Source of the DNA: a virus
Direction: 5' to 3' (one strand)
Virus record (IMG/VR): IMGVR_UViG_3300009529_000001
Coordinates: 45,579 to 109,578 of that record
DNA length: 64,000 nt
Shown in pieces: positions 691 through 46,359 of the stretch. The notes beneath the pieces were generated by a model. The model was not told where the DNA came from. It worked only from the letters and a program-made list of their open reading frames with translations, and did not search any database. Positions within the stretch are counted from its first letter, which is position 1. Every line of letters begins with the position of its first letter. Made by a program: the position numbers and the translations under genes.

Positions 691-1006
691 AACAAAGACA
701 AGATTAATTAATACTCTTGGAAGAGTTTATTACGCTTTTTATTTGAAAGGTGGTAGAAAAAATCCTAAAAGAAAAGATATAGAAGAAAATATATATAAAA
801 CAAAATATCCTGATTCTTTGAAATCATATCAAAAACTTTTTTCTCGATTATTTATACATATTAATGAAAAATTGACACAAAAATCTTATAAGAAAATAAT
901 AAAAATATTAAAAGAAGAAGATAAATTAACCGAGAAAAAAAGGCGCGGTTATATTAAGTGCTGGCGTTTAATGGAGAAATATTATGGAGGTTATTCAAGC
1001 GAATAG
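683..1006 (+). CDS. hypothetical basic protein
   Basis: ORF overlaps both neighbours in operon fashion. Confidence 0.55.
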   Translation: MFKTKTRLINTLGRVYYAFYLKGGRKNPKRKDIEENIYKTKYPDSLKSYQKLFSRLFIHINEKLTQKSYKKIIKILKEEDKLTEKKRRGYIKCWRLMEKYYGGYSSE

Positions 1007-3269
1007 TATTAATGATGGATTAGCAAAAGTTCTTGAAGGTATAGTAGGTAGAGGGAATAAAGTTGATATAAAAGGTAAAGAAACTCTAGAACTTCATCCT
1101 TGTTTAATAGAATTTGATAAACCTCTTAAACGTACATTGCTTTATCCAGGAAGGGGTAATAATCCTTTCGCTAGTCTTGCTGAAACTTTATGGATTTTAG
1201 CAGGACGAAATGACGTTGATTGGCTAAAATTCTTTTTGCCAAGAGCGCCTGATTGGAGCGATGATGGTGAAGTTTGGAGAGCAGGTTATGGACCTCGATT
1301 GAGGCAATGGAAAGCAGAGGGTGAATGTTCTAGTGAATGGACGTTCATTGATCAAATTAAATATGTCTACGATACACTTAAAAATGATCTAATGAGCAGA
1401 CAAGCAATAATATCTTTATGGGATCCTGGTGAAGAATGTACTGTGGGAAAAACATTAGATTGTCCTTGTTCCAATTGGCTACATTTTATGGTAAGGAGAA
1501 AATATAGGCCAGAATTAGCAGATATAAAAGACAAACCTGAAACTTGGACTTTCCATCTAGATTGTGAATTTGTGATCAGATCAAATGATGCAATTTGGGG
1601 ATTCTGTCTTTCCGGTGCTACTAAAATAAAATTATTGGATGGAACTGTTAAACCTATAAAAGATCTTGTTGATAAACAGTTTTGGGTTTATTCAAAAAAT
1701 AATGATAAAGAAATAGTACCCGGAAAAGTTATAAAATGTAAAAAAACAGGAAAGAAAAAAATATTAAAAATAACTTTTAGTGATGGAAGCTTCGTAAGAT
1801 GTTCTAAAAACCATAAGTTTTTATTAAGAGATTGGAAATATAGAAAAGCAAAAAATCTAAAAGTAGGTGATTCAATTGATAGTGTATATTTTAGATTGAA
1901 TAAAAAAGGTTATGAACAATATAACAACGGTGATGGCTGGTTTAATACGCATATAATGGCAAATATTCTGTCGGAAAAGGGAGAATTAGATAGTAATAAT
2001 AATTTTCATATAACTCACCATAAAGATTTTGTTAAACGAAATAATAATCCTGAAAATCTTTTATGGCTGGGGAATTATGATCATCATAGTTTTCATGCTG
2101 AATTATTGCGTAAAATGTGGCGGGATCCTAAATATAGAAAATCAAGAAAGAAAGTTATAAAAAAACTTTTAGCTTTTAATAGAAAACAATGGAAAAATCC
2201 TGAATATAGAAGAGAAAGACGTAAAATCTTAAGTGAAAGAATGATCCAATGGTGGGAAGAAGAAAGATTTGATACTGAATTACATAAAGAAGCTGCTAAA
2301 AATAATTTAATCAATTACAATAAATCTTTTAAAGGGCGTAATAAATCTAGAGAGATTGGACAAACATTTGGAACAGATAATTTTAAGAAATATCACAAAA
2401 CGGGCGGACATTTAAAAACTTTAGCAAAAATTCATAGAGAAAAATTAAACAATACTCCAAAAATTAAATTTAAACGCACTAGAACTAGAATCCTTAATGT
2501 TTTTAATGAATTGAAAAAAAGATTCTTAGAATTTAATGAAGAAAATTATTTTAATTATAAACCAATGGGTAATCCTGGATGGAAAAAAGTTTTTGAATAT
2601 TTTAAAGATTTGGATGAAATAAATGAATGCTTAGAAAATTATAATCACATAGTTACTTCTATAAAATCTGACGGTTATGAAGATACTTATGATTTGGAAG
2701 TAGAAGATTATCACAATTTTGTATTGGAAAATGGTGTTATCGTTCACAATTCTAATATTAATTTTTATGAATGGAGTGTATTACAAGAAATATTAGCAAG
2801 TGTATTAGGTATAGAAATTGGGACATTTTATTATTATGTATCAAGTATACATGTTTACAAACATCATTGGAAACGTGTTAAAAAATTATTGGAAAATAAA
2901 GAAAAATTTGTAGACAATCTTCCTGAATTTAGATTTTGTAGAGGGCAAATTAATCTTGATAAATATTTGGAAGACTGTGAAATGTTATGTAAATATGTAG
3001 AAGAAATAATAATAAATGATAAGAAAAAACTTAAATATTTTATACCTTTTCATGGGGAGAGAGGATCTACTTTAAACGATATTGCTTGTTTATTGTCAGT
3101 TTTTGTAAAAATGAAACAAAACGATAATGCTTGGAGAAAAACTTTGCATTGTATTCCATTTTCTGATTTAAAAGTATCTTGTTATTACTATGCAATGAAA
3201 AATATTTTTAAATACAAAGATTATACAATTCAAGAAGCAATAGAAAAGGTGCAAAAAAATGAGTATTAA
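984..3269 (+). CDS. thymidylate synthase-family enzyme, probably dUMP hydroxymethylase-like, interrupted by an intein
   Basis: NPFASLAETLWIL, YGPRLR, SRQAIISLWDP, catalytic PC (DCPCSN). RSNDAIWGF|SNINFYEWSVLQE is rejoined after intein removal; SIHVY follows. Confidence 0.85.
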   Translation: MEVIQANSINDGLAKVLEGIVGRGNKVDIKGKETLELHPCLIEFDKPLKRTLLYPGRGNNPFASLAETLWILAGRNDVDWLKFFLPRAPDWSDDGEVWRAGYGPRLRQWKAEGECSSEWTFIDQIKYVYDTLKNDLMSRQAIISLWDPGEECTVGKTLDCPCSNWLHFMVRRKYRPELADIKDKPETWTFHLDCEFVIRSNDAIWGFCLSGATKIKLLDGTVKPIKDLVDKQFWVYSKNNDKEIVPGKVIKCKKTGKKKILKITFSDGSFVRCSKNHKFLLRDWKYRKAKNLKVGDSIDSVYFRLNKKGYEQYNNGDGWFNTHIMANILSEKGELDSNNNFHITHHKDFVKRNNNPENLLWLGNYDHHSFHAELLRKMWRDPKYRKSRKKVIKKLLAFNRKQWKNPEYRRERRKILSERMIQWWEEERFDTELHKEAAKNNLINYNKSFKGRNKSREIGQTFGTDNFKKYHKTGGHLKTLAKIHREKLNNTPKIKFKRTRTRILNVFNELKKRFLEFNEENYFNYKPMGNPGWKKVFEYFKDLDEINECLENYNHIVTSIKSDGYEDTYDLEVEDYHNFVLENGVIVHNSNINFYEWSVLQEILASVLGIEIGTFYYYVSSIHVYKHHWKRVKKLLENKEKFVDNLPEFRFCRGQINLDKYLEDCEMLCKYVEEIIINDKKKLKYFIPFHGERGSTLNDIACLLSVFVKMKQNDNAWRKTLHCIPFSDLKVSCYYYAMKNIFKYKDYTIQEAIEKVQKNEY
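1605..2750 (+). mobile_element. intein (382 aa) with HNH-type endonuclease domain
   Basis: N-terminal CLSGATKIKL, block B CSKNHKF, C-terminal TYDLEVEDYHNF...VIVHN followed by Ser +1. Internal HHKDFVKRNNNPENL..H HNH motif. Confidence 0.9.
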
Positions 3270-21606: not shown

Positions 21607-21939
21607 ATGGACGTTGACGATCTGACTATCAGAGAAGTGAAGCGGCTGCAAGCAATGTTCGGGGCTGGTGAGCCGGGAATCCCAATCGTTGACGTGGGGC
21701 GGAAGGTTTTTATCCGCACGGTTACGCACCACTACACCGGGCGGGTGACCGCGTGCAATCCCGCGTGGCTTGAACTGGAAGAAGCCGCGTGGATCGCTTA
21801 CGACGGACGATTTCACGAATGTCTGGCGAACGGTACGCCGGATGAGGTTGAGCCATTCGTGGATTGGGTCCGCATTCCTGTCGGCTCGATCATCGACCTG
21901 ACTCCCTGGAACCATGATCTGCCGCAAAAGGTGAAATAA
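21607..21939 (+). CDS. small beta-barrel (Sm/LSm-like) protein, GC-rich gene
   Basis: VGRKVFIRTVTHHYTGRV...LELEEAAWI; RBS GGAGG. Fold is inferred. Confidence 0.6.
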   Translation: MDVDDLTIREVKRLQAMFGAGEPGIPIVDVGRKVFIRTVTHHYTGRVTACNPAWLELEEAAWIAYDGRFHECLANGTPDEVEPFVDWVRIPVGSIIDLTPWNHDLPQKVK

Positions 21940-21940
21940 T

Positions 21941-22180
21941 ATGAATCAAGCTCTATTAAGAACAAGTTTTGATTGGTCAAGGTCATGGTCAAGGTCATGG
22001 TCAAGGTCAAGGTCAAGGTCATGGTCATGGTCATGGTCAAGGTCAAGGTCAGGGTCATGGTCAGGGTCAAGGTCAGGGTCATGGTCAGGGTCAAGGTCAG
22101 GGTCAAGGTCAGGGTCAAGGTCAAGGTCAGGGTCAAGGTCAGGGTCAGGGTCAAGGTCAGGGTCAAGGTCAAAGGAATAA
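21941..22180 (+). CDS. Ser/Arg/Trp/Gly dipeptide-repeat protein
   Basis: ATG directly after the upstream stop, stop just before the next start; encoded by the GGTCAN array. Confidence 0.55.
   Translation: MNQALLRTSFDWSRSWSRSWSRSRSRSWSWSWSRSRSGSWSGSRSGSWSGSRSGSRSGSRSRSGSRSGSGSRSGSRSKE
21975..22172 (+). repeat. tandem hexamer repeat (GGTCA[A/T/G]) x33
   Basis: Read directly; only the 6th base varies. Confidence 0.95.
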
Positions 22181-22182
22181 TT

Positions 22183-22356
22183 ATGAGCAACAAACGAAGA
22201 AATAAATGGAAGAAGCCTAAGCCTGGAAGCCTACGATCAAGACCCGAAGATCGTAAGGGTTCAGATGCACATCAAAGAGCGAAGAAATGTGAAGAAATTA
22301 GGCGTAGACGAGATTTTTGTGTCTATAGCGGAATTTTTAGTGGACAATTTGATTAG
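22183..22356 (+). CDS. hypothetical basic protein
   Basis: RBS AAGGA before ATG 22183. Confidence 0.5.
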   Translation: MSNKRRNKWKKPKPGSLRSRPEDRKGSDAHQRAKKCEEIRRRRDFCVYSGIFSGQFD

Positions 22357-23938: not shown

Positions 23939-24304
23939 ATGGCTAAGAAAGAGAAGAAACCTCGTTACGAGCACCAGAACCCCGAAGAGGTAAGAATGGG
24001 CAAGACAGCCGTCAAGAATCCCATTCATGGTGCGCGAGGCTGGAAGCGGGCAACCACGATTGCTCTGGTGGTTGCTTTCGGGAAGCTGAAGAAGCGCGAC
24101 ATCAAGAGGTCGGAACTGGCTACGCTCTTGACGATGGCGGGTATCACGTTCAAGTGCGATAGCCCGAAGGAAGGACTGTCCGGCCAGGATCGTGAGGCTA
24201 ACGCCTACGCGAAGTGGGGACTTGACAACGCGAAGACCTACAACAACAAGAAGGTCGAAACGGTGATGGGATTCGCGGAAGCTGTGGTAAGCAAGAGTTC
24301 CTAA
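23939..24304 (+). CDS. basic early protein, paralog of 28142-28555; monocistronic, GC-rich codons
   Basis: KRATTIALVVAF..KR..SELA.LL and REANAYAKWGL match the 28142 protein; own promoter, RBS and terminator. Confidence 0.75.
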   Translation: MAKKEKKPRYEHQNPEEVRMGKTAVKNPIHGARGWKRATTIALVVAFGKLKKRDIKRSELATLLTMAGITFKCDSPKEGLSGQDREANAYAKWGLDNAKTYNNKKVETVMGFAEAVVSKSS

Positions 24305-24462: not shown

Positions 24463-24801
24463 ATGATTGAAATCAATGAAGAAGAAGTTGTTACTAGTAG
24501 AAAGTTGAAGCTTGAAGGCGTAGAATGGCGTGTAACAAAAAGGGAAAACGGCCGCACTAATGAATATATGTTGCGGCAGATTTGGGAAATCGAGGAGTTT
24601 CCTGTCATTGAAAATACGCTTTCGAGACTGGAATACTTTGACGATGGTGATGCAGAAAACGGCCCGCGAATAGGATCAGATTGGGTTGATATCGAACATT
24701 CACAAATGATGGGCAAACCTTGCGAAACACAAGATGAAGCGGATAACTTTGTCGAGCAGATTCTCATTGAAATATTGGAAGCGAAAATAGGACAGCAATG
24801 A
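24463..24801 (+). CDS. hypothetical acidic protein
   Basis: RBS AAGGAG after promoter; strongly Glu/Asp-rich. Confidence 0.6.
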   Translation: MIEINEEEVVTSRKLKLEGVEWRVTKRENGRTNEYMLRQIWEIEEFPVIENTLSRLEYFDDGDAENGPRIGSDWVDIEHSQMMGKPCETQDEADNFVEQILIEILEAKIGQQ

Positions 24802-25118
24802 CAAACGACAAAAAACTTCTGGTTTGGCTCGATGATGAACGGGCAATGCCAGAAGGTTACAATATTCATGTTAAAACTGCCGCTGAAGCTATTAAACTTC
24901 TTCGAAGCGGAACAGTAAAACATATTAGCTTTGATCATCACCTAGGAAATAGTAAAGGTACTGGCTATGATGTTGCTAAGTGGATCGAAGAACAAGCGTA
25001 CCATGGACGATTCATGAGCATAACTTGGCATATTCATACCGACAATCCTGTAGCATATCTAAATATTCATGCTGCTATGGCAAACGCAGACAAATATTGG
25101 GAAAAACAATGCTCGTAA
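24798..25118 (+). CDS. cyclic-phosphate-processing receiver-domain protein
   Basis: VWLDDER, ISFDHHLG, GTGYDVAKWI, IHTDNP. Confidence 0.75.
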   Translation: MTNDKKLLVWLDDERAMPEGYNIHVKTAAEAIKLLRSGTVKHISFDHHLGNSKGTGYDVAKWIEEQAYHGRFMSITWHIHTDNPVAYLNIHAAMANADKYWEKQCS

Positions 25119-25287: not shown

Positions 25288-25596
25288 ATGACTAAGATTA
25301 TTGAATTTGTCGCAGGTATCAAAGGCGATATGTCTGTAGGGATTATTCCCTTCGATGAAAAGGTAACTATAATTTTCCATGGTGATAAGCACGGCCAAAG
25401 CGTTCTTGATGATGAACCTACTCGAACAGAGATGACAACCGCTTTAGCTCAAACAATAGCAGAACTTGTGGATGGCTTTTGCGTTTCACGAAAAATTTAT
25501 GAAGAGGACGTTATAAAAGAACGAATTATGTATGCGATTGAGGAGGACAGGAGACAGGATGAAAAGCAAGAAGAACAAGAAGCCCAAAAACAGTAA
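25288..25596 (+). CDS. hypothetical protein
   Basis: GDMSVGI motif; RBS AAGGA. Confidence 0.55.
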   Translation: MTKIIEFVAGIKGDMSVGIIPFDEKVTIIFHGDKHGQSVLDDEPTRTEMTTALAQTIAELVDGFCVSRKIYEEDVIKERIMYAIEEDRRQDEKQEEQEAQKQ

Positions 25597-26037
25597 AGAT
25601 TGTCCAAACTGCAAAGGGACAGGTAAGAAGTCTAAGGACATTTGGCCCAAAGGCACTACAGAATGTTGGGCTTGTCGTGGACGTGGCTGGTTTTTGAAAG
25701 GGTAAAACAATGGATGTTAATATTCTGCCAAAGTGTCCTAAATGTGGAAAACCCACAAAGATACTTCGTGATTATTTCCTGTACGTAACCTGCACTGATA
25801 AAGACTGTACATATATCGAAGATGTTTTAACGTTAGGAGTACGTCAACAAAAGGAAGAAAAGCCAAAGAAAGGGTAGTATTATGGAACAAATAGCAAAAC
25901 ATCTATGGATTCACCACGTGCATCCACACTTAGGGATATAAAGGATATTTTCAAAGAAATCTGGAAAAAGAACAGGAAAAGGATTAAGGACTAGCCCAAG
26001 ACGCTAAATAAAGCGAAACTCTTTATTGGAGGAAGAT

Positions 26038-26244
26038 ATGCCCCATAATAAAACAGAGGTAGAGGTATTAAGCAATTTTAACAAACTTCTCGAAGAAGTA
26101 GAGGCTGAAAGAGCAAGGATAAAGGTATGGCATAATACGCATGAATTTGAAATAAGTAGAGACGGGAAAGTAGTACAGTTTTTTTCTACGATAGCTGAGT
26201 GTAGGGCTTTTCTAAAAGGATATCTATTAAAAACGAAGAAGTAA
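26038..26244 (+). CDS. hypothetical protein
   Basis: RBS GGAGG before ATG 26038. Confidence 0.55.
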   Translation: MPHNKTEVEVLSNFNKLLEEVEAERARIKVWHNTHEFEISRDGKVVQFFSTIAECRAFLKGYLLKTKK

Positions 26245-26760
26245 TTCTATTAAAAACCTCTAATAATTCTATTAAAAACCCTTCGATTTTCTCGGGAAAG
26301 TGTTCATTTTGAGTTCATTTTAGAAAAAAGTGTTCATGGCTTCGAGGGATTTTTGACAAAAAATTTTTCACCACAATTCCTTTCCTTTCATATTAAAAAT
26401 AAAAAAGAAATGAAAGAACTGAAATGAATCCAATCATATTAAGAATATTAAAAACAAGAACACATTCATACTGTTTCTTTTACAGAACTGAAATGAAAGG
26501 AATCAATTCACATTAAAAACTCTGACATGATCGTTTGAAAAGAGCTAAGTTTTCATTACAATGGGACGAACCTCATGAATGATTAGAGTTTAGAGTATTT
26601 TCACACAGATCAGAGTCAATTCTCCATAGAAAAGAGTCATTTCTTTTCAATTTAATATGAAAGGATTCTTTTCTTTTCTATTAAAAACAGAATAGATTCA
26701 AAAAGTATTAAAATGAGAAATGAATTTTTTCAAAGTATGAAATTAAAAACATTAAAAACT
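26226..26760. repeat. non-coding region with clustered ATTAAAAA(C) motifs and short direct repeats
   Basis: About 9 ATTAAAAA copies; TAATTCTATTAAAAACC x2, AAAGTGTTCAT x2, GAACTGAAATGAA x2. Confidence 0.7.
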
Positions 26761-26791
26761 ACTTGCAAAATGAACGAAAATGATATATACT
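26751..26791 (+). promoter_or_regulatory. early promoter
   Basis: ATTAAAAACTAC-TTGCAA-17-TATACT. Confidence 0.75.
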
Positions 26792-26829
26792 ATATATTAG
26801 CAAAGGGGCACTAGAACAAGGAGGTTGTT

Positions 26830-27102
26830 ATGATTTTAACGGAATTGGGTATGTTCCCAGCATTAAGAAGTATGTTTCAGGAAATATTTCTCGATCAGGG
26901 GCTAAACTATCCTACAGCTTTTAATGTGGCGGAAGGTTTCGATTTACAACACATGGAAAGTTTGGCACAGAAGCTTACTCGAAGCGAACGGGAAAGCTTC
27001 GCAACGGGAAATCTCGACGAGGAGATTTTACCGTTGGTAAAAGCTAAAGGTCTTGAAGAACTACATGAGTTCTGTGACGAATGTTATCACATTATGTTTT
27101 AG
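26830..27102 (+). CDS. hypothetical acidic early protein
   Basis: RBS AAGGAGG after promoter. Confidence 0.65.
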   Translation: MILTELGMFPALRSMFQEIFLDQGLNYPTAFNVAEGFDLQHMESLAQKLTRSERESFATGNLDEEILPLVKAKGLEELHEFCDECYHIMF

Positions 27103-27110
27103 GAGAAACC

Positions 27111-27314
27111 ATGCTAAGAGGAATTACAAAGAAGCCGAAGAGAAGGAAGTCTTGGCTAGAATCACATCGTTGCAAGAACAAAACGGTAAAGGGAGGGAAG
27201 AAACCCGTTACGGTAATATGCGAAGATAAAAGATGTTCTTCGTTGTTCATCGTGAAGGAGGAAGGACAGAAATTCTGTTCAACCTGTCAGCGGTTAAGAG
27301 GCAAAACTTCATAA
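27111..27314 (+). CDS. small basic zinc-finger protein
   Basis: C..KRC...FCSTC; RBS AGGAG. Confidence 0.55.
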   Translation: MLRGITKKPKRRKSWLESHRCKNKTVKGGKKPVTVICEDKRCSSLFIVKEEGQKFCSTCQRLRGKTS

Positions 27315-27324
27315 GACCCCTTGG

Positions 27325-27370
27325 AAAGAAGGAGTTGAGGTCATACGGATGACTTCTTCCTTCTTTTTTT
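27325..27370 (+). terminator. intrinsic terminator
   Basis: AAGAAGGAG..GAGGTCAT-ACGG-ATGACTTC.TTCCTTCTT followed by a T-tract. Confidence 0.7.
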
Positions 27371-27552
27371 AAGAATTTTTGGAAAAGATTCTTTTCTAAA
27401 AAAGAAAATTTCCCCAAAACTTTCTGAAGATGAAGACATTCCTGTGAATCTTTTCATACCAGTTATGGTTTGAATCATGTCATAGTCATAGCCCTGAGAT
27501 GATTCTAATCCTTCTTTTCTGGCCTATACCATAACGGTATCGAAAAATTCGG

Positions 27553-27598
27553 TCGAGTATACGTTTTGTATACAAAAGTATTAAAAACGTATACTCGA
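27553..27598. repeat. perfect 15-bp inverted repeat overlapping a 14-bp palindrome
   Basis: TCGAGTATACGTTTT (27553-67) / AAAACGTATACTCGA (27584-98); TTTTGTATACAAAA at 27564-77. Confidence 0.85.
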
Positions 27599-27696
27599 AA
27601 ACGCCAAAAATTTACTTCGATAAATGTTTAACAAAAGCATTAAAAACCTAAGCACGAAAAGCATTAAAAAAAACTTTAGTTTTTAATGTTTTTCGC

Positions 27697-27725
27697 TTTA
27701 CAAACTTTTGCCAATGTGCGATAAT
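27697..27725 (+). promoter_or_regulatory. sigma70-like promoter of the island
   Basis: TTTACA-17-GATAAT with extended TG. Confidence 0.55.
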
Positions 27726-27867
27726 GCGCTTGTAGGTTATTAATGCTTTTTGGCAATTTAACGGTGCGGCGCACAAGGTACACAAACCCCTTGTAGTTTA
27801 GCACGGGTAGTAAACCGTTTTTAATACGTTTGCAATTTCGTAAACGTAAACAACAAGGGGCAATGCA

Positions 27868-28047
27868 ATGGGTAAATTTCGATACCACCGTGCAAAAGGT
27901 ACGGCCTACGGCTGGCGTGCTGTATGGCAAATGCTCGCCAGCGACGGCGAGCTGTCGATACATAATGGCTATCGTTGGTGCTGTACAAACAAGCTAGCAA
28001 ACCGTTGGCTACGCCGCGAAAGCTTTGTGCAGTTAACAGGTATTTAA
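27868..28047 (+). CDS. 59-aa basic Trp-rich peptide (not in ORF track)
   Basis: MGKFRYHRAKGTAYGWRAVWQMLASDGELSIHNGYRWCCTNKLANRWLRRESFVQLTGI*; RBS AAGGGG. Confidence 0.55.
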   Translation: MGKFRYHRAKGTAYGWRAVWQMLASDGELSIHNGYRWCCTNKLANRWLRRESFVQLTGI

Positions 28048-28141
28048 TGCCGTTACCTTATTTTAAACGAAAGGTAGGTGCTCGACAAAGCTAACGTTAT
28101 TAATGTGTTTCGTTTTTAATATTTTTACAAGGGGCTTTACA

Positions 28142-28555
28142 ATGGCAAAAGCAAAAACGACCGAAACGACCGAAACGACCGAAACGAAAACCGAAAAGCC
28201 AAAGGCCAAATACGAATTTGTACGGGCCGTTGGTATTGCCCTCGGCGGCACAACGCATACTTTGCCCGCAAGCAAGCGCGCGCGTGCCCTGGCGATTGTT
28301 GCGGCCTTTGCCGAAAGGCACAAACGCAAGCCGAACGCCAGCGAGCTAGCGGTTATACTCGGCAACGTTTCGACGATAATGGCGCGCTCGGCTAATTTCG
28401 CCTACGACATTAAAAACCGCGAAAGCGAAATGCGCGCATACGCTCGCTGGTCGTTAAAATCGGGTACGTGCCGCGACGCCGATTTGCAAGCGGCTATGCC
28501 GTGGGCGAGGGCGATTGTAAACGACGGCAAGCCCGTTACCGAAACGAAAAAGTAA
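28142..28555 (+). CDS. basic early protein, paralog of 23939-24304
   Basis: KRARALAIVAAF..KRK..SELAVIL and ESEMRAYARWSL; N-terminal (TET)n repeat; RBS AAGGGG. Confidence 0.75.
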   Translation: MAKAKTTETTETTETKTEKPKAKYEFVRAVGIALGGTTHTLPASKRARALAIVAAFAERHKRKPNASELAVILGNVSTIMARSANFAYDIKNRESEMRAYARWSLKSGTCRDADLQAAMPWARAIVNDGKPVTETKK

Positions 28556-28579
28556 ATGACCGAAACGAAAACCATTAAC

Positions 28580-28610
28580 AACGGGCGCCTACGGGCGCCC
28601 GTTTTTTTTT
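28580..28610 (+). terminator. strong intrinsic terminator
   Basis: AACGGGCGCC-TACG-GGCGCCCGTT followed by a T-tract (UNCG loop). Confidence 0.9.
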
Positions 28611-28621
28611 GTCGATATTAA

Positions 28622-28682
28622 AAAACGAAAACGAAAAACGAAAACGAAAACGAAAAACGAAAACGAAAACGAAAAACGAAAA
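28622..28682 (+). repeat. tandem CGAAAA(A) repeat, about 9 units
   Basis: Read directly. Confidence 0.9.
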
Positions 28683-29026
28683 GTATTAATAACTTTTTTG
28701 CTGCACAAACATTTTAGTAATACCATATTAAAAATAATAATATTAAAACCCCCCCCACATAATAAACAAAATTTTTTTTTATTTTGTATGAGTGTTCCCC
28801 TTTTAGAAACCTCGAGAATTTTTGAACTTTAAAACAGTTAATATCAAAAATTTAGAAATCTCGAATGTCCTGGAAACCTCAAAATATTAATATCAAACTA
28901 TTTCCCGTATATTGAACTCAATCTGCCTCATATGACTGGAATCTGGAAATCAGATCGCTCAAAAAATATAGCACAACTACCTACAGGCGAAAAGGTTTTT
29001 AATAGAATTGACAAAAGAGTTAGTTA

Positions 29027-29494
29027 TTATGTAGCGTCTAAAATATTTTCAAGTTGTTTTTTCAGAGTTTGAAGTTCATTGGGGATATCAGAAGATCGAG
29101 CGGCGGGATGCGTCAGTTGGAAAATACAAAGATCGTCTGGAAAATCTAAAGAATCAAAATTGGGGAAACGATCAAAAGTCTGTATAGCTAAATTGCCAAA
29201 AAGGATAATAACTTGTGGTTTGAATTTATTGATAATTTTCTTAATATGTTTATAATCAGCAGGAAAATGTGACGATGATTTGGAACCTATTTTGGGAGAA
29301 ATGTTTTCCCAATGGATTTGACGAAAAAGATCTTCGCCCAAATATTTAATAAGACGTTTGCCTGTGAAGGATTGGGCTAGGAGTCTTTTTTGAAATTCAA
29401 CCTTATGTCCTCTTTTTTCGGAACGATCAAGAGCTTCTTGGACGCGCTCAGGATTATAGACCCACATGTTTTGAAGGAAGGCGAGGATATTCAA
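29027..29494 (-). CDS. uracil-DNA glycosylase-fold protein
   Basis: LQN, S.TGKRL, PQVIILFGNLA, LTHPAAR motifs. Confidence 0.6.
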   Translation of the reverse strand: MNILAFLQNMWVYNPERVQEALDRSEKRGHKVEFQKRLLAQSFTGKRLIKYLGEDLFRQIHWENISPKIGSKSSSHFPADYKHIKKIINKFKPQVIILFGNLAIQTFDRFPNFDSLDFPDDLCIFQLTHPAARSSDIPNELQTLKKQLENILDAT

Positions 29495-29709
29495 TTTATT
29501 CTACCTTCGTTCTTTAATTGATTTTCGAGAGATTGAATATGACTAATAAGAATATTAGTGATTTCTTGTAATGTATACCAAGTAACCAAACCAAAAGTAT
29601 TTCCTATACTTATCTGATATTCTATGTGAATTTTTATACATGTAAGACAATTATTTTTATCAGGAAAACATTCTCCGTCGTAATCAGGATGATCTGGGCA
29701 ACGTTGCAT
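29491..29709 (-). CDS. hypothetical protein (CPDHPDY..C..C)
   Basis: Coupled ORF. Confidence 0.55.
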   Translation of the reverse strand: MQRCPDHPDYDGECFPDKNNCLTCIKIHIEYQISIGNTFGLVTWYTLQEITNILISHIQSLENQLKNEGRIN

Positions 29710-29711
29710 AG

Positions 29712-30128
29712 TTAATCCTTATTGAACCTTTCCCATAAACCATATTTGTTTAAATTTTCAATAAAAGGACGTAATGCTTCTTTTTGTCTTTGGACTTTTT
29801 CTTGATATTCTATTAGAAGTTTTCTGATCTTTGGAGTATCGGGGTATAGATCAATATTGCCAATTTCAAAAGAACATATATGTTCTGATTGGTTAATAAA
29901 CATATCAGGATACATAATAGATTCTAATCCTTTAATATATTCTGCAATTATGGTAATTACTAAGGGATAATGGGGAGAGTCTTTATGTTCTTTTTCGCTA
30001 TCAATAGAAACGTATGCATCTATAACTTTATAAAGAGAAAATTTGTCACCCTTTCTATCCGAACACCATACATTCGTAGGGATTTTATATTTTTTTCTAT
30101 CTAATTTTCTATGGAATTTAAGTTGCAT
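29712..30128 (-). CDS. hypothetical protein
   Basis: RBS AGGAG. Confidence 0.6.
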   Translation of the reverse strand: MQLKFHRKLDRKKYKIPTNVWCSDRKGDKFSLYKVIDAYVSIDSEKEHKDSPHYPLVITIIAEYIKGLESIMYPDMFINQSEHICSFEIGNIDLYPDTPKIRKLLIEYQEKVQRQKEALRPFIENLNKYGLWERFNKD

Positions 30129-30137
30129 AACAATCTC

Positions 30138-30653
30138 CTATTCAGTGTAAACATAAGGATCTTTGGTCATCTCATACAAAGTATTTTCTATATTATACTT
30201 TTGTTCTTGAAGAGCTAATAGTTCTCTTTCTGTAAGACTTTTATTACTTGACTTTTCTTCGACAGGAAGTTCTAATAATTTTTCGATTTGTTTCAATCTA
30301 TAATGTAGTCTATCAAATTCTTGAGTTTTTTCATGGAGTTTTTTAGCATGTTCTTCTTTGGGAAGATATTTATAGACTCTTTTGAATTTTTGTACACCAT
30401 TTAGTTCTCCCAATGATACACAATATTCTTCAGGATCTAATTCAAAAACGGCTTGTGGAATATTTACATCAGTTGCTATTGTAGATTTAACTGTAAACAT
30501 ATCAGGATCCCGTAAAGGTATAGCAACATGGACATTTGGTGAATCAAACAATGGTTTATCGACACATAAACCTAGTATAACTTTTCTAATATCTATGGAC
30601 ATAAGTTTTTCCCAAAAATATTTTCCCATTGTCTGTTCTACCATTGACTTCAC
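30138..30653 (-). CDS. hypothetical protein
   Basis: Operon ORF; start uncertain. Confidence 0.55.
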   Translation of the reverse strand: MKSMVEQTMGKYFWEKLMSIDIRKVILGLCVDKPLFDSPNVHVAIPLRDPDMFTVKSTIATDVNIPQAVFELDPEEYCVSLGELNGVQKFKRVYKYLPKEEHAKKLHEKTQEFDRLHYRLKQIEKLLELPVEEKSSNKSLTERELLALQEQKYNIENTLYEMTKDPYVYTE

Positions 30654-30680
30654 AAATTTTGATAGCCATCTTCCCCTCCG

Positions 30681-31193
30681 CTATTTCCAATGAACAAGCC
30701 TAGTATCCAGCCACGCTATTATTTCTTCCCTCGGAACTTTTGATCCGATTGGATATCTCTCTTGCGCCTCGTCGAGCAGGCGAGTAAAAACGTCTCGCTT
30801 TAGGTGTTTGTTCTCGGCCTCAAGCCCAGAAACTACTATCCTGACGGCATCCAGCGGCATTCCGTATTCCTCGGGAAGTGCGGGACATTTCTCCCGGAGG
30901 TACTTTTCGATAGCTTTGTTTGAATCTACGGCCACGCTCTGCCACGCCTCAAGCTCGGCGATGCGCAGGCTCCGCTCAAAGGCTGACGTGTCGGCCTCGG
31001 TAAGCCGACTGCGCTCGGCGCGGATAAGCTCGACGACAGCCTCGACCGCACCCTGTCCCGGTTCGCCATCGTCATCCCACTGACGCCAGAATTCCCTCGC
31101 CCTCTCTTCCGCGTCGTCAGCTTGTTTCCTATGTGCAGGACATGTACGAGCGTCGCCAGTGCAATTTGGATCTTTTCTTGCTGGATCAATCAT
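30681..31193 (-). CDS. hypothetical protein with GC-rich core
   Basis: ATGA overlap with upstream gene; composition shift at ~30760-31130. Confidence 0.55.
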   Translation of the reverse strand: MIDPARKDPNCTGDARTCPAHRKQADDAEERAREFWRQWDDDGEPGQGAVEAVVELIRAERSRLTEADTSAFERSLRIAELEAWQSVAVDSNKAIEKYLREKCPALPEEYGMPLDAVRIVVSGLEAENKHLKRDVFTRLLDEAQERYPIGSKVPREEIIAWLDTRLVHWK

Positions 31194-31692: not shown

Positions 31693-32136
31693 TTATCTAT
31701 TTTGCAATTCTTTTCTTACTTGCATAAGAATTTTGCCTAGTTTATTTTTTCCTACCCATTTACCATCAGCTCTACATTTTCCCCAATATTCATCACCCCA
31801 ACGATTTCCTTCAATAAGTTTTGCATTTCCAGTATCAATGAGTTTTTTAGCTAAATCGGAATTTTGGAAAAACTTTGCTTTAACTGTTTTATACATGATT
31901 TTATCTTTAACATCATCCCAATCTTTGCGTAATTTAAGTTTTTTTCCTAAACGTTTTGCTTGGATAAAATTTTCACACTTACGAATTTCTTTACGAAGTT
32001 TTTTCTTTTTAGTTTTATGAGCTTGATAGTAATGTTCAACAGAACGCCATTTTTTTTCAGCAATTATAAATGACGCCATATAAAAATTACTAAGGAATCC
32101 ATAACCTCTTCTAAAAGAAAAAATCTTTTTAGCCAT
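31693..32136 (-). CDS. NADAR/YbiA family hydrolase
   Basis: FLSNFY, SVEHYYQAHK, KFFQN, LIEGNRWGDEYWG, GKNKLGKILMQVR. Confidence 0.9.
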   Translation of the reverse strand: MAKKIFSFRRGYGFLSNFYMASFIIAEKKWRSVEHYYQAHKTKKKKLRKEIRKCENFIQAKRLGKKLKLRKDWDDVKDKIMYKTVKAKFFQNSDLAKKLIDTGNAKLIEGNRWGDEYWGKCRADGKWVGKNKLGKILMQVRKELQNR

Positions 32137-41384: not shown

Positions 41385-42689
41385 ATGATTAGATGTGATT
41401 ACCCTAATTGTGGATGTAAAAAAACTACTACTTTCAAATGGATTTCTCATGTTTTAAAAACAATTTATTTTGAAGTTCCTAAAGTAGCATCTACAAGTAT
41501 ACGAAAAGGATGTTTCGGTATTGATGTAAATGATCTAAAGAAAAATAATCCTTATGATTTTGAAGTATTTCGAGATTCCAATCTTGAAAAATATTCTGAT
41601 TATTTTAAATTTACAATTGTCCGAAATCCTTGGGACAGAATCGTATCTATTTGGAAAATGTATACAACACAGTCTTCTCGCAAAAAACAAATAAAAAAAT
41701 TATTCAAAATAGAAGATCCTGCTAATCTTTCTTTCCTAGAATTTATTGAAAAAATGACAGAAAAGAGGAATCACCATTGGGAACAACAAATTGAATTTTT
41801 GCCTAATTTAAATGAATTAGATTACATAGGAAGATTTGAAAATCTTAGGGAAGCTTGGCATTTTATTTCTTATAAATTAGGAATAAATACAAAATTACAG
41901 AAATTAAATGTCACAGATCATTACCATTATCATTATAGTGAATATTATGACAGAATAACAAAAGGAATTGTAGAGAAAGAATATGCGAAAGATTTTAAAA
42001 TACTTAAATTCAAATTTGAAGTGCTTTCTTACTGTGATAATTTTTCTAAAGAAAAATCTAATATTGCAGGATTAAAATATATTCCGACTCAGGAACCATA
42101 TAGAAGTAATGGTTGTCAAATGATGAATATTCCTTCTTGGTTAGTAAGAAGAAAGGAAATGAGAAAAGATAGTTTTTCTGTAAGGAATAGAAAAATTTTA
42201 TTTAAACGTATTACTCCTGAAATGAAATGTATCTTAGAAATTGGCGTCAATAGATATGCAGAAAAATCTTCTACAAGTATTGTTTTTAAAGGTAAATCTG
42301 ACGATTGTGTTTACTTAGGAATTGATTTAATGGATAAATCTTATTTGGATAATCCTGAAAAGAATATATATACAATGAAATGCAATTCAAATTTAAAACA
42401 AAAGGTTATAGATAAATTAAATAGTTTAGGACAAGAACAGATAAATCTTCTTATTATTGATGGGGATCATTCAATCAATGGCGTTATAGGTGATTGGGGA
42501 TTTACTAAATGGCTTGCTGAAGATGGGATTGTATTTTTACATGATACAAATGCACATACTGGTCCTATGCTTGTTTATGACGCTATAGATGAAACTATGT
42601 ACAAAAAGAAGAAACGTTGTACTGGAAGAAATGAAGATGGCAGTTTTAAAGATTGGGGAATTGGTGTTTGTAGGAAGATTAAAGAATAG
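41385..42689 (+). CDS. sulfotransferase (family 2) fused to a methyltransferase (Methyltransf_24-like)
   Basis: PKVASTS, VRNPWDRIVS, IGRFENL; then LEIGV, IIDGDHS, FLHDT. Confidence 0.8.
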   Translation: MIRCDYPNCGCKKTTTFKWISHVLKTIYFEVPKVASTSIRKGCFGIDVNDLKKNNPYDFEVFRDSNLEKYSDYFKFTIVRNPWDRIVSIWKMYTTQSSRKKQIKKLFKIEDPANLSFLEFIEKMTEKRNHHWEQQIEFLPNLNELDYIGRFENLREAWHFISYKLGINTKLQKLNVTDHYHYHYSEYYDRITKGIVEKEYAKDFKILKFKFEVLSYCDNFSKEKSNIAGLKYIPTQEPYRSNGCQMMNIPSWLVRRKEMRKDSFSVRNRKILFKRITPEMKCILEIGVNRYAEKSSTSIVFKGKSDDCVYLGIDLMDKSYLDNPEKNIYTMKCNSNLKQKVIDKLNSLGQEQINLLIIDGDHSINGVIGDWGFTKWLAEDGIVFLHDTNAHTGPMLVYDAIDETMYKKKKRCTGRNEDGSFKDWGIGVCRKIKE

Positions 42690-45420: not shown

Positions 45421-46359
45421 TTAAACCTTTGTAATAGGATGAAAATGCATTCTGGCTTTACCTACCTGTTTTTTAATCTTCCAATACTTACCCCACTCAC
45501 AGAGACAAAATTCCATATCTTGAAGTGTCAATCGTGGACCTTTGAATTTAATGCCAAGATGTTCAAAATGTTCATCTTGTTCATCGGTAAGTTCCGACAT
45601 TGCATCTGTGTAGGAAATACATTCCCTATTAGGATATATTGTTTCTATTCCAAATTCGCATCCTGGTCCTGGATTAGCAAAAGTATCACGAACTTTGTCA
45701 GGGAATACTCCAGCATAGACCATATCTATACAGACTTCGTATGAAGTAAATCCTCCGAATCCATATTGTTTAAGAAAAAATTTAAAGCATCCTTCCCAAT
45801 CTAAAATTTTTCTAAACTTTTTAATTTCTTTCCAGATATACTTCCAATTCTTTTTGAGTTTGGTGACGATAGTAATGAAATTAGCAATACGAGACTGCTT
45901 AAGATTTGATTGACAAGTAATGTGCGCATTTGTAAAGACTCTAAATCCTTTTGATTTGTAGGAATTAAGGCGTTTTTCGTATTTTTCGGGATTAAATTTT
46001 TTTCTGAGAGGAATTCCACAGGCTTCAAAGGTTTCGATATTGTTGTTAATCCTATAAAAAATGCAAGCCCAAACTTTATCTTGAAGTCTCGGATACTTAT
46101 CGTTTTCAATAATATTTTTAATCATCCACTGACTGCCACGATCAAGAATACGATAAACATTAGTAAATTTATATTTTTCTAATATTGGGTCTTTAGTCCA
46201 CGGAGGAGGTTTTTTCTTTATAAATCGACGTATATAAATGTTATGACGTTTATGAAGGAATCTGAAAAACATATCAAGATTTTTCTGACAAACTTCAGGA
46301 TAATCTTCAGGTTTTGGAAGAGCAGATAAAGATTTAGAAGATTCTCTTTTTAGAACCAT
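45421..46359 (-). CDS. aGPT-Pplase1 family (alpha-glutamyl/putrescinyl-thymine transferase clade 1) DNA thymine-hypermodification enzyme
   Basis: RH.IY.RR..PPPWTKDPIL..YKFTNVYR.LDRGS, GGFTSYEV..D, NPGPG...G, DMEFCLCEWGKY. Confidence 0.8.
   Translation of the reverse strand: MVLKRESSKSLSALPKPEDYPEVCQKNLDMFFRFLHKRHNIYIRRFIKKKPPPWTKDPILEKYKFTNVYRILDRGSQWMIKNIIENDKYPRLQDKVWACIFYRINNNIETFEACGIPLRKKFNPEKYEKRLNSYKSKGFRVFTNAHITCQSNLKQSRIANFITIVTKLKKNWKYIWKEIKKFRKILDWEGCFKFFLKQYGFGGFTSYEVCIDMVYAGVFPDKVRDTFANPGPGCEFGIETIYPNRECISYTDAMSELTDEQDEHFEHLGIKFKGPRLTLQDMEFCLCEWGKYWKIKKQVGKARMHFHPITKV

What the first reader, a model, noticed from the sequence alone, without database searches (positions are those of the whole stretch)
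27521..28788. Sharply bounded 1.27-kb island that excludes GA/TC except inside CGA/TCG: candidate modification-free or defence-evading entry segment
Seen: across ~1270 bp every GA is preceded by C and every TC is followed by G, with one exception (TGA at 28557, just after a stop codon). Elsewhere AGA/GGA/TGA are ubiquitous, so my rough expectation would be on the order of a hundred sites. The rule is strand-symmetric and covers coding and non-coding DNA. Both Shine-Dalgarno sites are AAGGGG rather than the AGGAG used elsewhere, the -35 is TTTACA, Glu/Asp codons always follow a C, and Ser is TCG or AGC. The paralog at 23939 uses GA freely, which is an internal control against protein-level constraint. 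The island is a self-contained unit: palindrome, promoter, two genes, terminator, repeat tail. Inference: either (a) the phage hypermodifies a base in DGA/TCH context (it encodes a dUMP-hydroxymethylase-like gene, aGPT-Pplase1 and many glycosyltransferases) and keeps this segment unmodified so host RNA polymerase or terminase can use it, or (b) it is first-injected DNA purged of a motif attacked by a host defence.
Basis: partly seen in the sequence, partly recalled or inferred. Interest (0 to 1): 0.95.

Follow-up and report, generated by a model that had tools for sequence, protein, structure and literature searches.

The report
Phage gene cassette purged of TCH
An uncultured 110-kb phage with thymine-modification genes keeps one complete two-gene unit (1.27 kb) free of the three-letter DNA word TCH/DGA, a word it spreads evenly everywhere else, so this unit probably stays ordinary, unmarked DNA in an otherwise marked genome.

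Summary
Window 27521-28788 has no AGA, GGA, TCA, TCC or TCT and a single TGA, against about 112 such sites per kb elsewhere. In the whole 109.6-kb genome the next longest site-free gap is 59 bp. An independent assembly bridges both borders, so this is not a misjoin. The purge comes from selection, not mutation. All 17 Asp/Glu codons follow a C-ending codon, Asp+Glu content equals that of the normal-DNA paralog, and Ser, Arg and Gly codons are recoded. New here: outside the island, DGA/TCH sites are spaced more evenly than three null models allow, and only as a union of the three words and both strands. So the word purged in the island is kept in place everywhere else. The only DNA-modification genes I found belong to the 5-hydroxymethyluracil/thymine-hypermodification route. 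Best reading (about 0.5): T in 5'-TCH-3' carries the phage's mark, and the cassette (promoter, two small genes, terminator, margins) is kept mark-free, probably so that the host polymerase can read it. No chemistry or timing data exist. This scan has found GA/TC-free cassettes in at least eight other thymine-modifying phages. This one differs in exempting TCG/CGA, which lets its proteins keep Asp and Glu. I found nothing like it in print.

The parts
27521..28788 (.). DGA/TCH-free island (one exception, TGA at 28557). GC is 42.8% against 33.5% elsewhere, and CGA/TCG is about four times enriched.
27553..27598 (.). Near-perfect palindrome (21-nt arms, 4-nt loop) in the purged left margin, about 100 bp upstream of the -35.
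   Evidence: I4
27574..27831 (.). Six copies, in both orientations, of a 15-bp A/T-rich word AAAAGYATTAAWAAC around the promoter. Further copies lie at 28096, 28112, 28568 and 28679. Ten of the 20 window matches lie in the island, against 3.9 expected for the whole window.
27697..27725 (+). Sigma-70-type promoter TTTACA-17-GATAAT with an extended -10 TG (10 of 12 matches).
27787..27860 (+). 5' leader stem in which CCCCTTGT pairs with the ACAAGGGG Shine-Dalgarno of ORF1 (predicted only).
   Evidence: (I23)
27868..28047 (+). ORF1, 59 aa, basic and rich in Trp/Arg, with no relatives. Its ribosome site duplicates that of ORF2.
   Evidence: (D11)
28142..28555 (+). ORF2, 137 aa, basic and predicted all-helical, the recoded twin of the gene at 23939-24304. 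All 14 Asp/Glu codons are preceded by C.
28557..28559 (+). The only DGA site, lying between the ORF2 stop and the terminator. It sits in a 20-nt copy of the ORF2 5' region where CGA has become TGA.
   Evidence: D3
28580..28613 (+). Intrinsic terminator (10-bp GC-rich stem followed by a T-run).
28615..28788 (.). Purged right margin: a CGAAAA/CGAAAAA tandem array (28621-28682), one more 15-bp word, a C-run and an A/T-rich tail.
   Evidence: D1
23939..24304 (+). Ordinary-DNA paralog of ORF2 (121 aa) with its own TTGCAA-17-TACAAT promoter and an AGGAG ribosome site. It uses GA and TC freely.
45421..46359 (-). PF18723 (HMUDK_hel, earlier called aGPT-Pplase1) protein, E 1.9e-60. It is the marker of the thymine-hypermodification route and sits in an operon with two GT4 glycosyltransferases and a UDP-glucose dehydrogenase.
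984..3269 (+). Thymidylate-synthase-family enzyme interrupted by an intein, the candidate dUMP hydroxymethylase. Its substrate was not tested here.
   Evidence: scan note e1-6049338

Best explanation
The phage places its DNA mark on the thymine of 5'-TCH-3' (H = A, C or T; TCG is exempt). The mark is most likely a bulky 5-hydroxymethyluracil-derived, perhaps glycosylated, hypermodification. Selection keeps such sites dense and evenly spaced over the genome, about one every 9 bp and never more than 59 bp apart, as a protective coat. One self-contained unit has been rewritten so that neither strand offers a single target: a purged margin of about 176 bp, a sigma-70-type promoter, two small genes, a terminator and a second purged margin of about 178 bp. 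This 1.27-kb stretch therefore stays plain T (or plain hmU) DNA whatever the state of the rest of the genome. The most likely use is expression. Host RNA polymerase and regulators can read this unit when marked DNA is a poor template, for example on the incoming virion genome. One of its products is a twin of a protein that is also encoded in ordinary, markable DNA. Shown: the purge, its sharp borders, the recoding under protein constraint, the even spacing of the same motif elsewhere, and the presence of thymine-route genes with no other recognisable modification genes. Inferred: that TCH is covalently marked, that T is the marked base, that the mark hinders transcription, and the timing of expression.
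For: (1) The purge is complete and unique in the genome and is not an assembly artefact. (2) It results from selection on DNA that overrides the coding sequence. All 17 Asp/Glu codons follow a C-ending codon, against a background third-base C of 33% in ORF2 and 5 of 13 in the paralog. Asp+Glu is 14 against 13 in the paralog. There are no [KEQMW][DE] dipeptides, against 4 in the paralog. No TCH Ser, AGA Arg or GGA Gly codons occur. (3) The purge covers both strands and about 175 bp of non-transcribed DNA on each side, which points to a constraint at the DNA level rather than the RNA level. (4) Outside the island the same motif is under-dispersed. Gaps over 30 bp number 124, against 212 under a Markov-3 null (z -4.7, strongest of 40 control motif sets), 225 under a synonymous codon shuffle (z -10.4), and 146 under a shuffle that keeps every protein and every trinucleotide count (z -3.1, 0 of 100 shuffles as low, strongest of 50 sets). 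The three words and the two strands show this only as a union (each word alone z about 0), as expected if they are interchangeable members of one motif. CGA/TCG does not take part. (5) Gene content fits: a TS-family enzyme, PF18723 at 1.9e-60 with homologs in PaMx11-, ViI- and SP10-type phages, glycosyltransferases, a sugar dehydrogenase and a sulfotransferase. No TGT, C5- or N6/N4-methyltransferase or Tet/JBP was found. (6) T is the only invariant thymine in TCH/DGA. TCH holds 16.5% of all thymines, in the range of the partial substitution reported for such phages (23% of hmU phosphorylated by the M6 kinase in vitro, PMC8989533). (7) In print: resistant restriction sites in M6, ViI and phiW-14 share TG/TC (PMC6449724). 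Conversion is described as sequence-specific (PMC8989533). Phosphorylating hmU in a template with 5-HMUDK cuts E. coli RNA polymerase output to about 10% of that from the hmU template, while plain hmU raises it (PMC6457204). (8) The one surviving site (28557) lies after the stop codon, where a block would cost nothing.
Against: No chemical or signal-level evidence exists that this phage's DNA is modified at all, or at TCH. No canonical P-loop 5-hmU DNA kinase was found: the only Walker-A proteins are RecA and an SbcC-like ATPase. The enzyme that would set the context is therefore unidentified. Under the strictest null the spacing signal is moderate (z -3.1). The larger z of the simple codon shuffle is partly due to CpG avoidance at codon junctions, and similar control runs on other phages give strong z values for CG and TA sets. 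Other host-type promoters of this phage contain DGA/TCH, so marked DNA cannot be wholly unreadable unless those promoters fire only on new, unmarked copies. No relative with the island could be found, so conservation is untested here. PaMx11 (whole genome) and the first 50 kb of SFP10 and YungSlug, all cultured phages carrying a homolog of the PF18723 protein, show no comparable island. No RNA data exist.
Confidence: 0.5

Rival explanations
1. The island is mark-free as above, but for a role at the DNA level rather than for expression. It could be a replication origin, a recombination site or a protein-binding platform that needs plain DNA. The palindrome, the roughly ten copies of a 15-bp A/T-rich word and the CGAAAA array would then be the working parts.
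For: The purge extends about 175 bp beyond the promoter and the terminator, on both strands. The 15-bp word is clustered here: 10 of 20 window matches, against 3.9 expected for the whole window. There is a 21-nt-arm palindrome and tandem arrays. The island sits at a junction of convergent gene blocks.
Against: The unit has a full set of expression signals, and its genes were recoded at a cost, which would not be needed for a pure DNA site. The 15-bp words contain no TC and would not need a 1.27-kb purge. TerL and portal lie 19.5 kb away, which argues against a packaging site. No origin-type initiator gene is present in the island.
Confidence: 0.15
2. DGA/TCH is not covalently marked but is read by a protein. 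This could be an abundant phage DNA-coating or silencing factor, or a phage nuclease that tells self from host. The island escapes binding or cutting.
For: Even spacing elsewhere together with a local purge fits any factor that acts at the motif. No context-setting modification enzyme was identified.
Against: A three-base degenerate word gives very little binding energy for a protein reader. The genome carries a full set of thymine-route and sugar genes that need a DNA target. Published thymine hypermodification already shows TC/TG context dependence (PMC6449724).
Confidence: 0.12
3. A host defence attacks DGA/TCH, and the island is first-entering DNA purged of the target so that it can be expressed before the rest is protected.
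For: It has the self-contained early-type unit design. Leading DNA of T5 and T7 is known to avoid restriction sites (my own knowledge, not read here). The physical ends of the genome are unknown.
Against: The rest of the genome carries about 12,000 such sites, slightly enriched and evenly spaced, which is the opposite of avoidance. The motif is three bases, degenerate and non-palindromic, unlike any restriction target. The island shows no significant palindrome avoidance. The DarT2 motif TNTC survives in the island as TNTCG.
Confidence: 0.08
4. The island is a foreign 'moron' cassette whose composition reflects a donor genome and has no link to this phage's biology.
For: It has its own promoter and terminator, a GC content of 43% against 33%, a different ribosome-site style, and no homologs in the databases.
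Against: ORF2 has a paralog in the same genome that is equally GC-rich (54% against 55%). The purged word is exactly the one under spacing selection in this genome. No donor with genome-wide DGA/TCH avoidance is known, and none was found.
Confidence: 0.04
5. The island is a scar of hypermutation by a TC-specific DNA cytosine deaminase (TC to TT, GA to AA).
For: AA and TT are over-represented in the island (observed/expected 1.5 and 1.8).
Against: Asp+Glu content is unchanged relative to the paralog, and every Asp/Glu codon is preceded by C, which mutation alone would give with a probability of about 2e-7. Three conserved Glu residues are retained. The reading frames, ribosome sites, promoter and terminator are intact.
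Confidence: 0.01

Closest known systems
Context-dependent thymidine hypermodification from 5-hmdU (Pseudomonas phages M6 and PaMx11, Salmonella ViI, Delftia phiW-14, Bacillus SP10; PMC5889632, PMC8989533, PMC6449724)
   Same: Shared features are a TS-family enzyme and a PF18723 (aGPT-Pplase1/HMUDK_hel) protein homologous to PaMx11 gp50 and its ViI-type and Spounavirinae counterparts. Substitution of T is partial and context-dependent, with TC among the reported contexts.
   Different: No P-loop 5-hmU DNA kinase was recognised here. The pathway genes sit with glycosyltransferases, a sugar dehydrogenase and a sulfotransferase. The inferred context has three bases (TCH, with TCG exempt). No mark-free island has been described for those phages, and I found none in PaMx11 or in the first 50 kb of SFP10 and YungSlug.
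Restriction-site avoidance in first-entering DNA (T5 first-step-transfer region; T7 early region with Ocr). From my own knowledge, not read here.
   Same: A local stretch holding early, self-contained genes is free of a sequence that matters for the fate of the incoming DNA.
   Different: There the avoided words are the host's restriction sites (4-8 bp, mostly palindromic), and they are merely tolerated elsewhere. Here the word is a degenerate three-base motif that the phage itself keeps evenly spread elsewhere. Entry order is unknown.
DpdA-dependent 7-deazaguanine (dPreQ0) at GA and GGC in Escherichia phage CAjan. From scan note e1-3409407 and my own knowledge; the paper was not read here.
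   Same: A phage mark placed at a two- to three-base word that includes GA/TC.
   Different: No TGT/DpdA gene is present in this genome. GGC is frequent in the island (29 copies).
Switching bacterial transcription off by enzymatic modification of hmU in the template (PMC6457204; also PMC4838386, seen only as its abstract in the search list)
   Same: It provides the mechanism assumed here: bulky or charged groups at position 5 of T reduce transcription by E. coli RNA polymerase, while plain hmU does not.
   Different: It is an in vitro, fully substituted, artificial system. Nothing is known about this phage's mark or its host polymerase.
GA/TC-free cassettes found by this scan in other uncultured thymine-modifying phages (notes e1-6037504, e1-5952764, e1-5974421, e1-5901741, e1-6005347, e1-5939709, e1-5981770, e1-5911611; unchecked AI notes)
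   Same: The design is the same: a promoter-to-terminator unit of 0.5-1.1 kb purged on both strands, in phages with thymine-route genes, sometimes as a recoded twin of a normal gene.
   Different: Those cassettes lack all TC/GA and their proteins have lost Asp and Glu. Here TCG/CGA is exempt, so Asp and Glu are kept by placing a C in front. The cargo proteins share no detectable sequence similarity.

Membership tests
5-hmdU-derived thymidine hypermodification pathway | dUMP hydroxymethylase (thymidylate-synthase family) | tested here: inconclusive
   PF00303 at E 1.3e-20, split by an intein, at window 984-3269. Its choice of dUMP over dCMP or methylation was not tested here (judged to be dUMP-type in scan note e1-6049338).
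5-hmdU-derived thymidine hypermodification pathway | aGPT-Pplase / HMUDK-associated helical domain protein | tested here: met
   PF18723 at 1.9e-60, 205 bits. tblastn finds homologs in 446 phage records, including PaMx11 (next to its kinase gp49), ViI-type Kuttervirus and Bacillus Spounavirinae.
5-hmdU-derived thymidine hypermodification pathway | [quoted passage not shown] | tested here: not met
   The only G....GK[ST] proteins in the genome are RecA and an SbcC-like ATPase. The ORF upstream of the PF18723 gene has no similarity to PaMx11 gp49. The test was limited, so a divergent kinase could have been missed.
5-hmdU-derived thymidine hypermodification pathway | Hypermodified T present in virion DNA at a short sequence context | not testable with these tools
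   Only Illumina-derived contigs of one metagenome run are available.
Leading-region restriction-site avoidance (T5 FST / T7 type) | The stretch lies at the genome end that enters first | not testable with these tools
   The assembly is of circular type with a 123-bp end overlap. Only contigs could be laid, not raw reads.
Leading-region restriction-site avoidance (T5 FST / T7 type) | The avoided word is a host restriction target and is not favoured elsewhere | tested here: not met
   The word is three bases, degenerate and non-palindromic, and elsewhere it is slightly enriched and under-dispersed. The island shows no significant palindrome avoidance.
DpdA 7-deazaguanine modification at GA | DpdA (TGT-family) transglycosylase gene | tested here: not met
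   PF01702 is absent from the complete genome, while the control search matched all 14 control genomes.
Moron (autonomous foreign transcription unit) | Own promoter and terminator, with deviating composition | tested here: met
Moron (autonomous foreign transcription unit) | Foreign origin | tested here: inconclusive
   The only close relative of ORF2 is a paralog in the same genome. The more distant homologs P0003 and P0008 could not be placed on DNA.

The most novel reading that the evidence does not exclude
Thymine-hypermodifying phages follow a two-part genome rule. First, the three-base target of their own DNA mark is spaced like a ruler, so that no stretch longer than about a protospacer or restriction footprint is left bare. 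Second, a single 'pioneer' cassette is purged of the target, so that it is the only DNA the host polymerase can read on the incoming, fully marked chromosome. Its small DNA-binding-like product, the twin of a gene in markable DNA, then opens marked DNA for expression. The exempt context (TCG here, none in other lineages) would report the specificity of each lineage's modification enzyme directly from sequence.
Probability: 0.25. Interest if true: 0.9.

Novelty: categorically new. Interest (0 to 1): 0.85.

Why it matters
If the reading holds, the target context of an unknown DNA hypermodification can be read from a genome sequence alone, in two independent ways: the island shows what is avoided, and the rest shows what is kept evenly spaced. 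It would also show that heavy DNA marks have a cost for gene expression that phages solve in cis, by writing a mark-proof gene unit. That gives a testable entry point into how marked phage DNA is first expressed. It gives a simple search rule for such phages in metagenomes. It also gives a natural design principle for making a chosen segment of a modified genome readable. The TCG exemption is a specific, falsifiable prediction about enzyme specificity.

Tried and rejected
Relatives. Nothing was found by blastn against phage records or by pattern-plus-tblastn scans of viral and metagenome contigs with ORF2, the family alignment, homolog P0003 and the neighbouring UDG-like gene. The word-indexed protein search found only the proteins themselves. 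The exhaustive HMMER search gave two full-length homologs (P0003, P0008). Conservation of the island is therefore untested.

Expression. No RNA holder is listed for this stretch.

Function of ORF2. There are no Pfam or PHROG families. The AlphaFold model is poor (pLDDT 54), so no fold search was run. There was no PDB sequence match. The Atlas gave only leads scoring below 0.8. The resemblance of residues 50-94 to PF18780 HNH_repeat HTH modules reaches only 9.7% hhalign probability, so I treat it as a lead, not a finding.

RNA families. Nothing reached a gathering score.

Other cultured phages with a PF18723 homolog. The trinucleotide-gap scan found no comparable island in PaMx11 (whole genome) or in the first 50 kb of SFP10 and YungSlug. 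The rest of those two genomes was not fetched. The spacing test on these phages was dominated by CG and TA sets and did not recover a thymine context. The simple codon-shuffle statistic alone is therefore not specific, which is why I added the trinucleotide-preserving shuffle.

Readings rejected. Deaminase hypermutation. A DpdA mark. A cytosine methylation, TET and glycosylation route. Avoidance of the DarT2 TNTC motif, which survives as TNTCG; DarT1 has no consensus. General palindrome or restriction-site avoidance. A packaging site next to the terminase. Misassembly.

Depth. Logan depth differs by a factor of 1.3-1.5 between contigs (16.4 for the contig wholly inside the island, 14.4 on the left, 11.1 on the right). 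These are per-contig means and do not show anything.
Full report
THE OBSERVATION

Window 27521-28788 (1268 bp) contains no AGA, GGA, TCA, TCC or TCT and a single TGA at 28557. GA occurs 51 times, 50 of them as CGA. TC occurs 22 times, always as TCG. From the island's own base composition 122 DGA+TCH sites are expected. The rest of the window carries 112 per kb.

The window is part of a complete 109,578-bp virus contig with a 123-bp end overlap. In the whole genome the two longest site-free gaps are the island (1039 and 232 bp, split by the single TGA), and the third is 59 bp. A blind scan of all 32 strand-symmetric trinucleotide pairs singles out exactly AGA/TCT, GGA/TCC and TGA/TCA at this place. 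Their gap x rate scores are 56, 38 and 39, against a background of 20 or less.

The borders are sharp, with 27 sites in the 150 bp to the left and 18 in the 150 bp to the right. Contigs that Logan built independently from the one public run holding this phage cross both borders (25500-28184 and 28653-31000). They break only at the tandem repeats inside the island. The island is therefore part of the phage and not a misjoin.

ANATOMY

From left to right the island holds the following:
- a purged margin of about 176 bp with a 21-nt-arm palindrome (27553-27598);
- several copies of a 15-bp A/T-rich word, AAAAGYATTAAWAAC;
- a sigma-70-type promoter, TTTACA-17-GATAAT, with an extended -10 TG (27697-27725);
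- a leader of about 135 nt whose predicted fold pairs the ribosome site of ORF1;
- ORF1 (59 aa) and ORF2 (137 aa), each behind an AAGGGG ribosome site in a duplicated 24-nt context;
- an intrinsic terminator (28580-28613);
- a purged margin of about 178 bp with a CGAAAA/CGAAAAA array.

The island lies at the end of a long rightward block of small genes and faces a leftward block. TerL (48218-49963) and the portal gene lie about 19.5 kb away.

ORF1 has no relatives. ORF2 has a paralog at 23939-24304 (29% identity, E 8e-11) and two distant full-length homologs in 1.8 billion representative proteins. It is basic and predicted to be all-helical. A weak resemblance to the HTH module PF18780 is only a lead.

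SELECTION, NOT MUTATION

In ORF2 all 14 Asp/Glu codons, and in ORF1 all 3, follow a codon ending in C. The background third-base C is 33% in ORF2, which gives about 2e-7 for ORF2 alone. In the paralog only 5 of 13 do so. Asp+Glu content is the same as in the paralog (14 against 13). Three Glu residues conserved between the paralogs are retained.

Dipeptides that cannot be written without DGA ([KEQMW] followed by [DE]) are absent, against 4 in the paralog. Ser uses only TCG and AGC. Arg never uses AGA and Gly never uses GGA.

A TC-specific deaminase would have removed about two thirds of the acidic residues, so that reading is rejected. The purge also covers both strands and about 175 bp of DNA outside the transcript on each side. 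This argues for a constraint at the DNA level and against one at the RNA level.

THE SAME WORD IS KEPT IN PLACE EVERYWHERE ELSE

Outside the island, gaps longer than 30 bp between DGA/TCH sites number 124. Three null models expect more:
- A third-order Markov model expects 212 (z -4.7). It is the only clearly under-dispersed set among 40 analogous motif sets, most of which are over-dispersed.
- Shuffling synonymous codons within genes expects 225 (z -10.4, with the tail shown). This null is partly confounded by CpG avoidance at codon junctions, and on other phages it gives strong values for CG and TA sets.
- I therefore used a shuffle that keeps every protein and every trinucleotide count exactly. 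Only 5.7% of positions can move. It still expects 146 (z -3.1; none of 100 shuffles is as low), and this is the strongest of 50 sets.

Each of the three words alone shows no such effect (z about 0). The + strand DGA and TCH sets alone show less than their union, and CGA/TCG does not take part. The three words and the two strands thus behave as interchangeable members of one double-stranded motif whose even coverage is favoured. This motif has exactly the definition that the island lacks.

This links the island to the phage's own biology. It speaks against a foreign cassette and against a motif that is harmful in itself.

WHAT THE MOTIF IS MOST LIKELY FOR

The genome encodes the following:
- a thymidylate-synthase-family enzyme split by an intein;
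- a PF18723 protein (HMUDK_hel, formerly aGPT-Pplase1; E 1.9e-60), in an operon with two GT4 glycosyltransferases and a UDP-glucose dehydrogenase;
- a sulfotransferase.

Homologs of the PF18723 protein occur in 446 phage records. These include PaMx11 (next to its 5-hmU DNA kinase), ViI-type and Bacillus Spounavirinae phages.

TGT/DpdA, C5- and N6/N4-methyltransferases and Tet/JBP are absent. Thymine is therefore the candidate base, and the T of TCH is the only invariant thymine of the motif. TCH holds 16.5% of all thymines.

In print, restriction-resistant sites of M6, ViI and phiW-14 share TG/TC, which the authors attribute to kinase specificity (PMC6449724). Conversion of 5-hmdU is described as sequence-specific, with about 23% of hmU phosphorylated in vitro (PMC8989533). 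Phosphorylating hmU in a template turns E. coli RNA polymerase largely off, while plain hmU stimulates it (PMC6457204).

One weakness is that I found no canonical P-loop kinase. The enzyme that sets the context is unknown, and the pathway may be a glycosylating variant, as scan note e1-6049338 proposed.

BEST EXPLANATION AND ITS LIMITS

The cassette is written so that the phage's own mark cannot be placed on it. I give about 0.6 to the statement that the island escapes a TCH-directed thymine modification. I give about 0.35 to the further statement that the purpose is reading by the host polymerase on marked (for example incoming) DNA. The confidence stated for the whole is 0.5.

Points in favour of an expression purpose:
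- the complete set of expression signals;
- the costly recoding of two genes;
- the twin-gene arrangement;
- the position of the one tolerated site after the stop codon.

Points against, or left open:
- the purged margins and the clustered 15-bp words fit a DNA-level role equally well;
- other host-type promoters of the phage contain the motif;
- no timing, ends or chemistry are known.

Rivals are listed with their odds in the Rival explanations section.

COMPARISON AND NOVELTY

The island works like the site-free leading DNA of T5 or T7 in being a local, self-contained, motif-free early-type unit. It fails that family's tested feature, because the word is not a restriction-type site and is favoured elsewhere.

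It belongs with context-dependent thymidine hypermodification as far as gene content goes, with one defining gene not found. No mark-free island is described for those phages, and I saw none in PaMx11 or in the parts of SFP10 and YungSlug that I scanned. Two literature searches found no description of such islands.

This scan has noted GA/TC-free cassettes in at least eight other uncultured phages with thymine-modification genes, and related purges of other words in other phages. Those are unchecked AI notes that I did not retest. The present case differs in exempting TCG/CGA. This narrows the inferred target to three bases and lets the proteins keep Asp and Glu.

VERDICT

Interest is high. 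The decisive tests are native-DNA chemistry or signal at TCH inside and outside the island, mapping of the genome ends, and transcription on marked templates.

Noticed in passing
window 29027-29494 (-): The gene directly next to the island is a weak member of the uracil-DNA glycosylase superfamily (PF03167, E 1.2e-5, just over the cut-off). This is of interest in a phage that probably replaces T by a uracil derivative.
   Followed up: partly
window 31693-32136 (-): A NADAR-domain protein (PF08719, E 4.7e-32). NADARs reverse guanine ADP-ribosylation by DarT1, so this is a candidate counter-defence gene.
   Followed up: partly
window 24798-25118 (+): A stand-alone cREC_REC receiver domain (PF20274, E 3.5e-25) among the small rightward genes.
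   Followed up: no
window 27787-27800 / 27847-27860: In the predicted fold of the island's leader, CCCCTTGT pairs with the ACAAGGGG ribosome site of ORF1. This could be a translational control element.
   Followed up: partly
window 26441-26759 and 27574-28693: The 15-bp word AAAAGYATTAAWAAC gives 20 matches in the window against 3.9 expected. Thirteen of them lie within or just upstream of the island, often just upstream of -35 hexamers. It could be an UP-element-like sequence or an operator word.
   Followed up: partly
window 27521-27696 and 28611-28788: The purged margins outside the transcript are almost equal in length (about 176 and 178 bp). I have no explanation for this.
   Followed up: no
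window 21813-22356: A long simple-sequence tract that reads as dipeptide repeats in several frames (TL, RS/WS, GQ, VK/VR). Its GC content is about 50%.
   Followed up: no
window 48218-49963 (+): The large terminase subunit is very divergent. It has no Pfam terminase family and only a PHROG match (phrog_2, E 2.5e-14).
   Followed up: partly
L001:27871-28656 (Pseudomonas phage PaMx11): A 785-bp stretch between the lysis and replication modules has no ATG/CAT (15 expected) and few ATC/GAT. This is the strongest trinucleotide gap in that genome, but far weaker than the island studied here.
   Followed up: partly
window 41385-42689 (+): A sulfotransferase-family protein (PF03567, E 2.6e-14) lies next to the glycosyltransferase/PF18723 operon, which hints at a sulfated sugar.
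   Followed up: no
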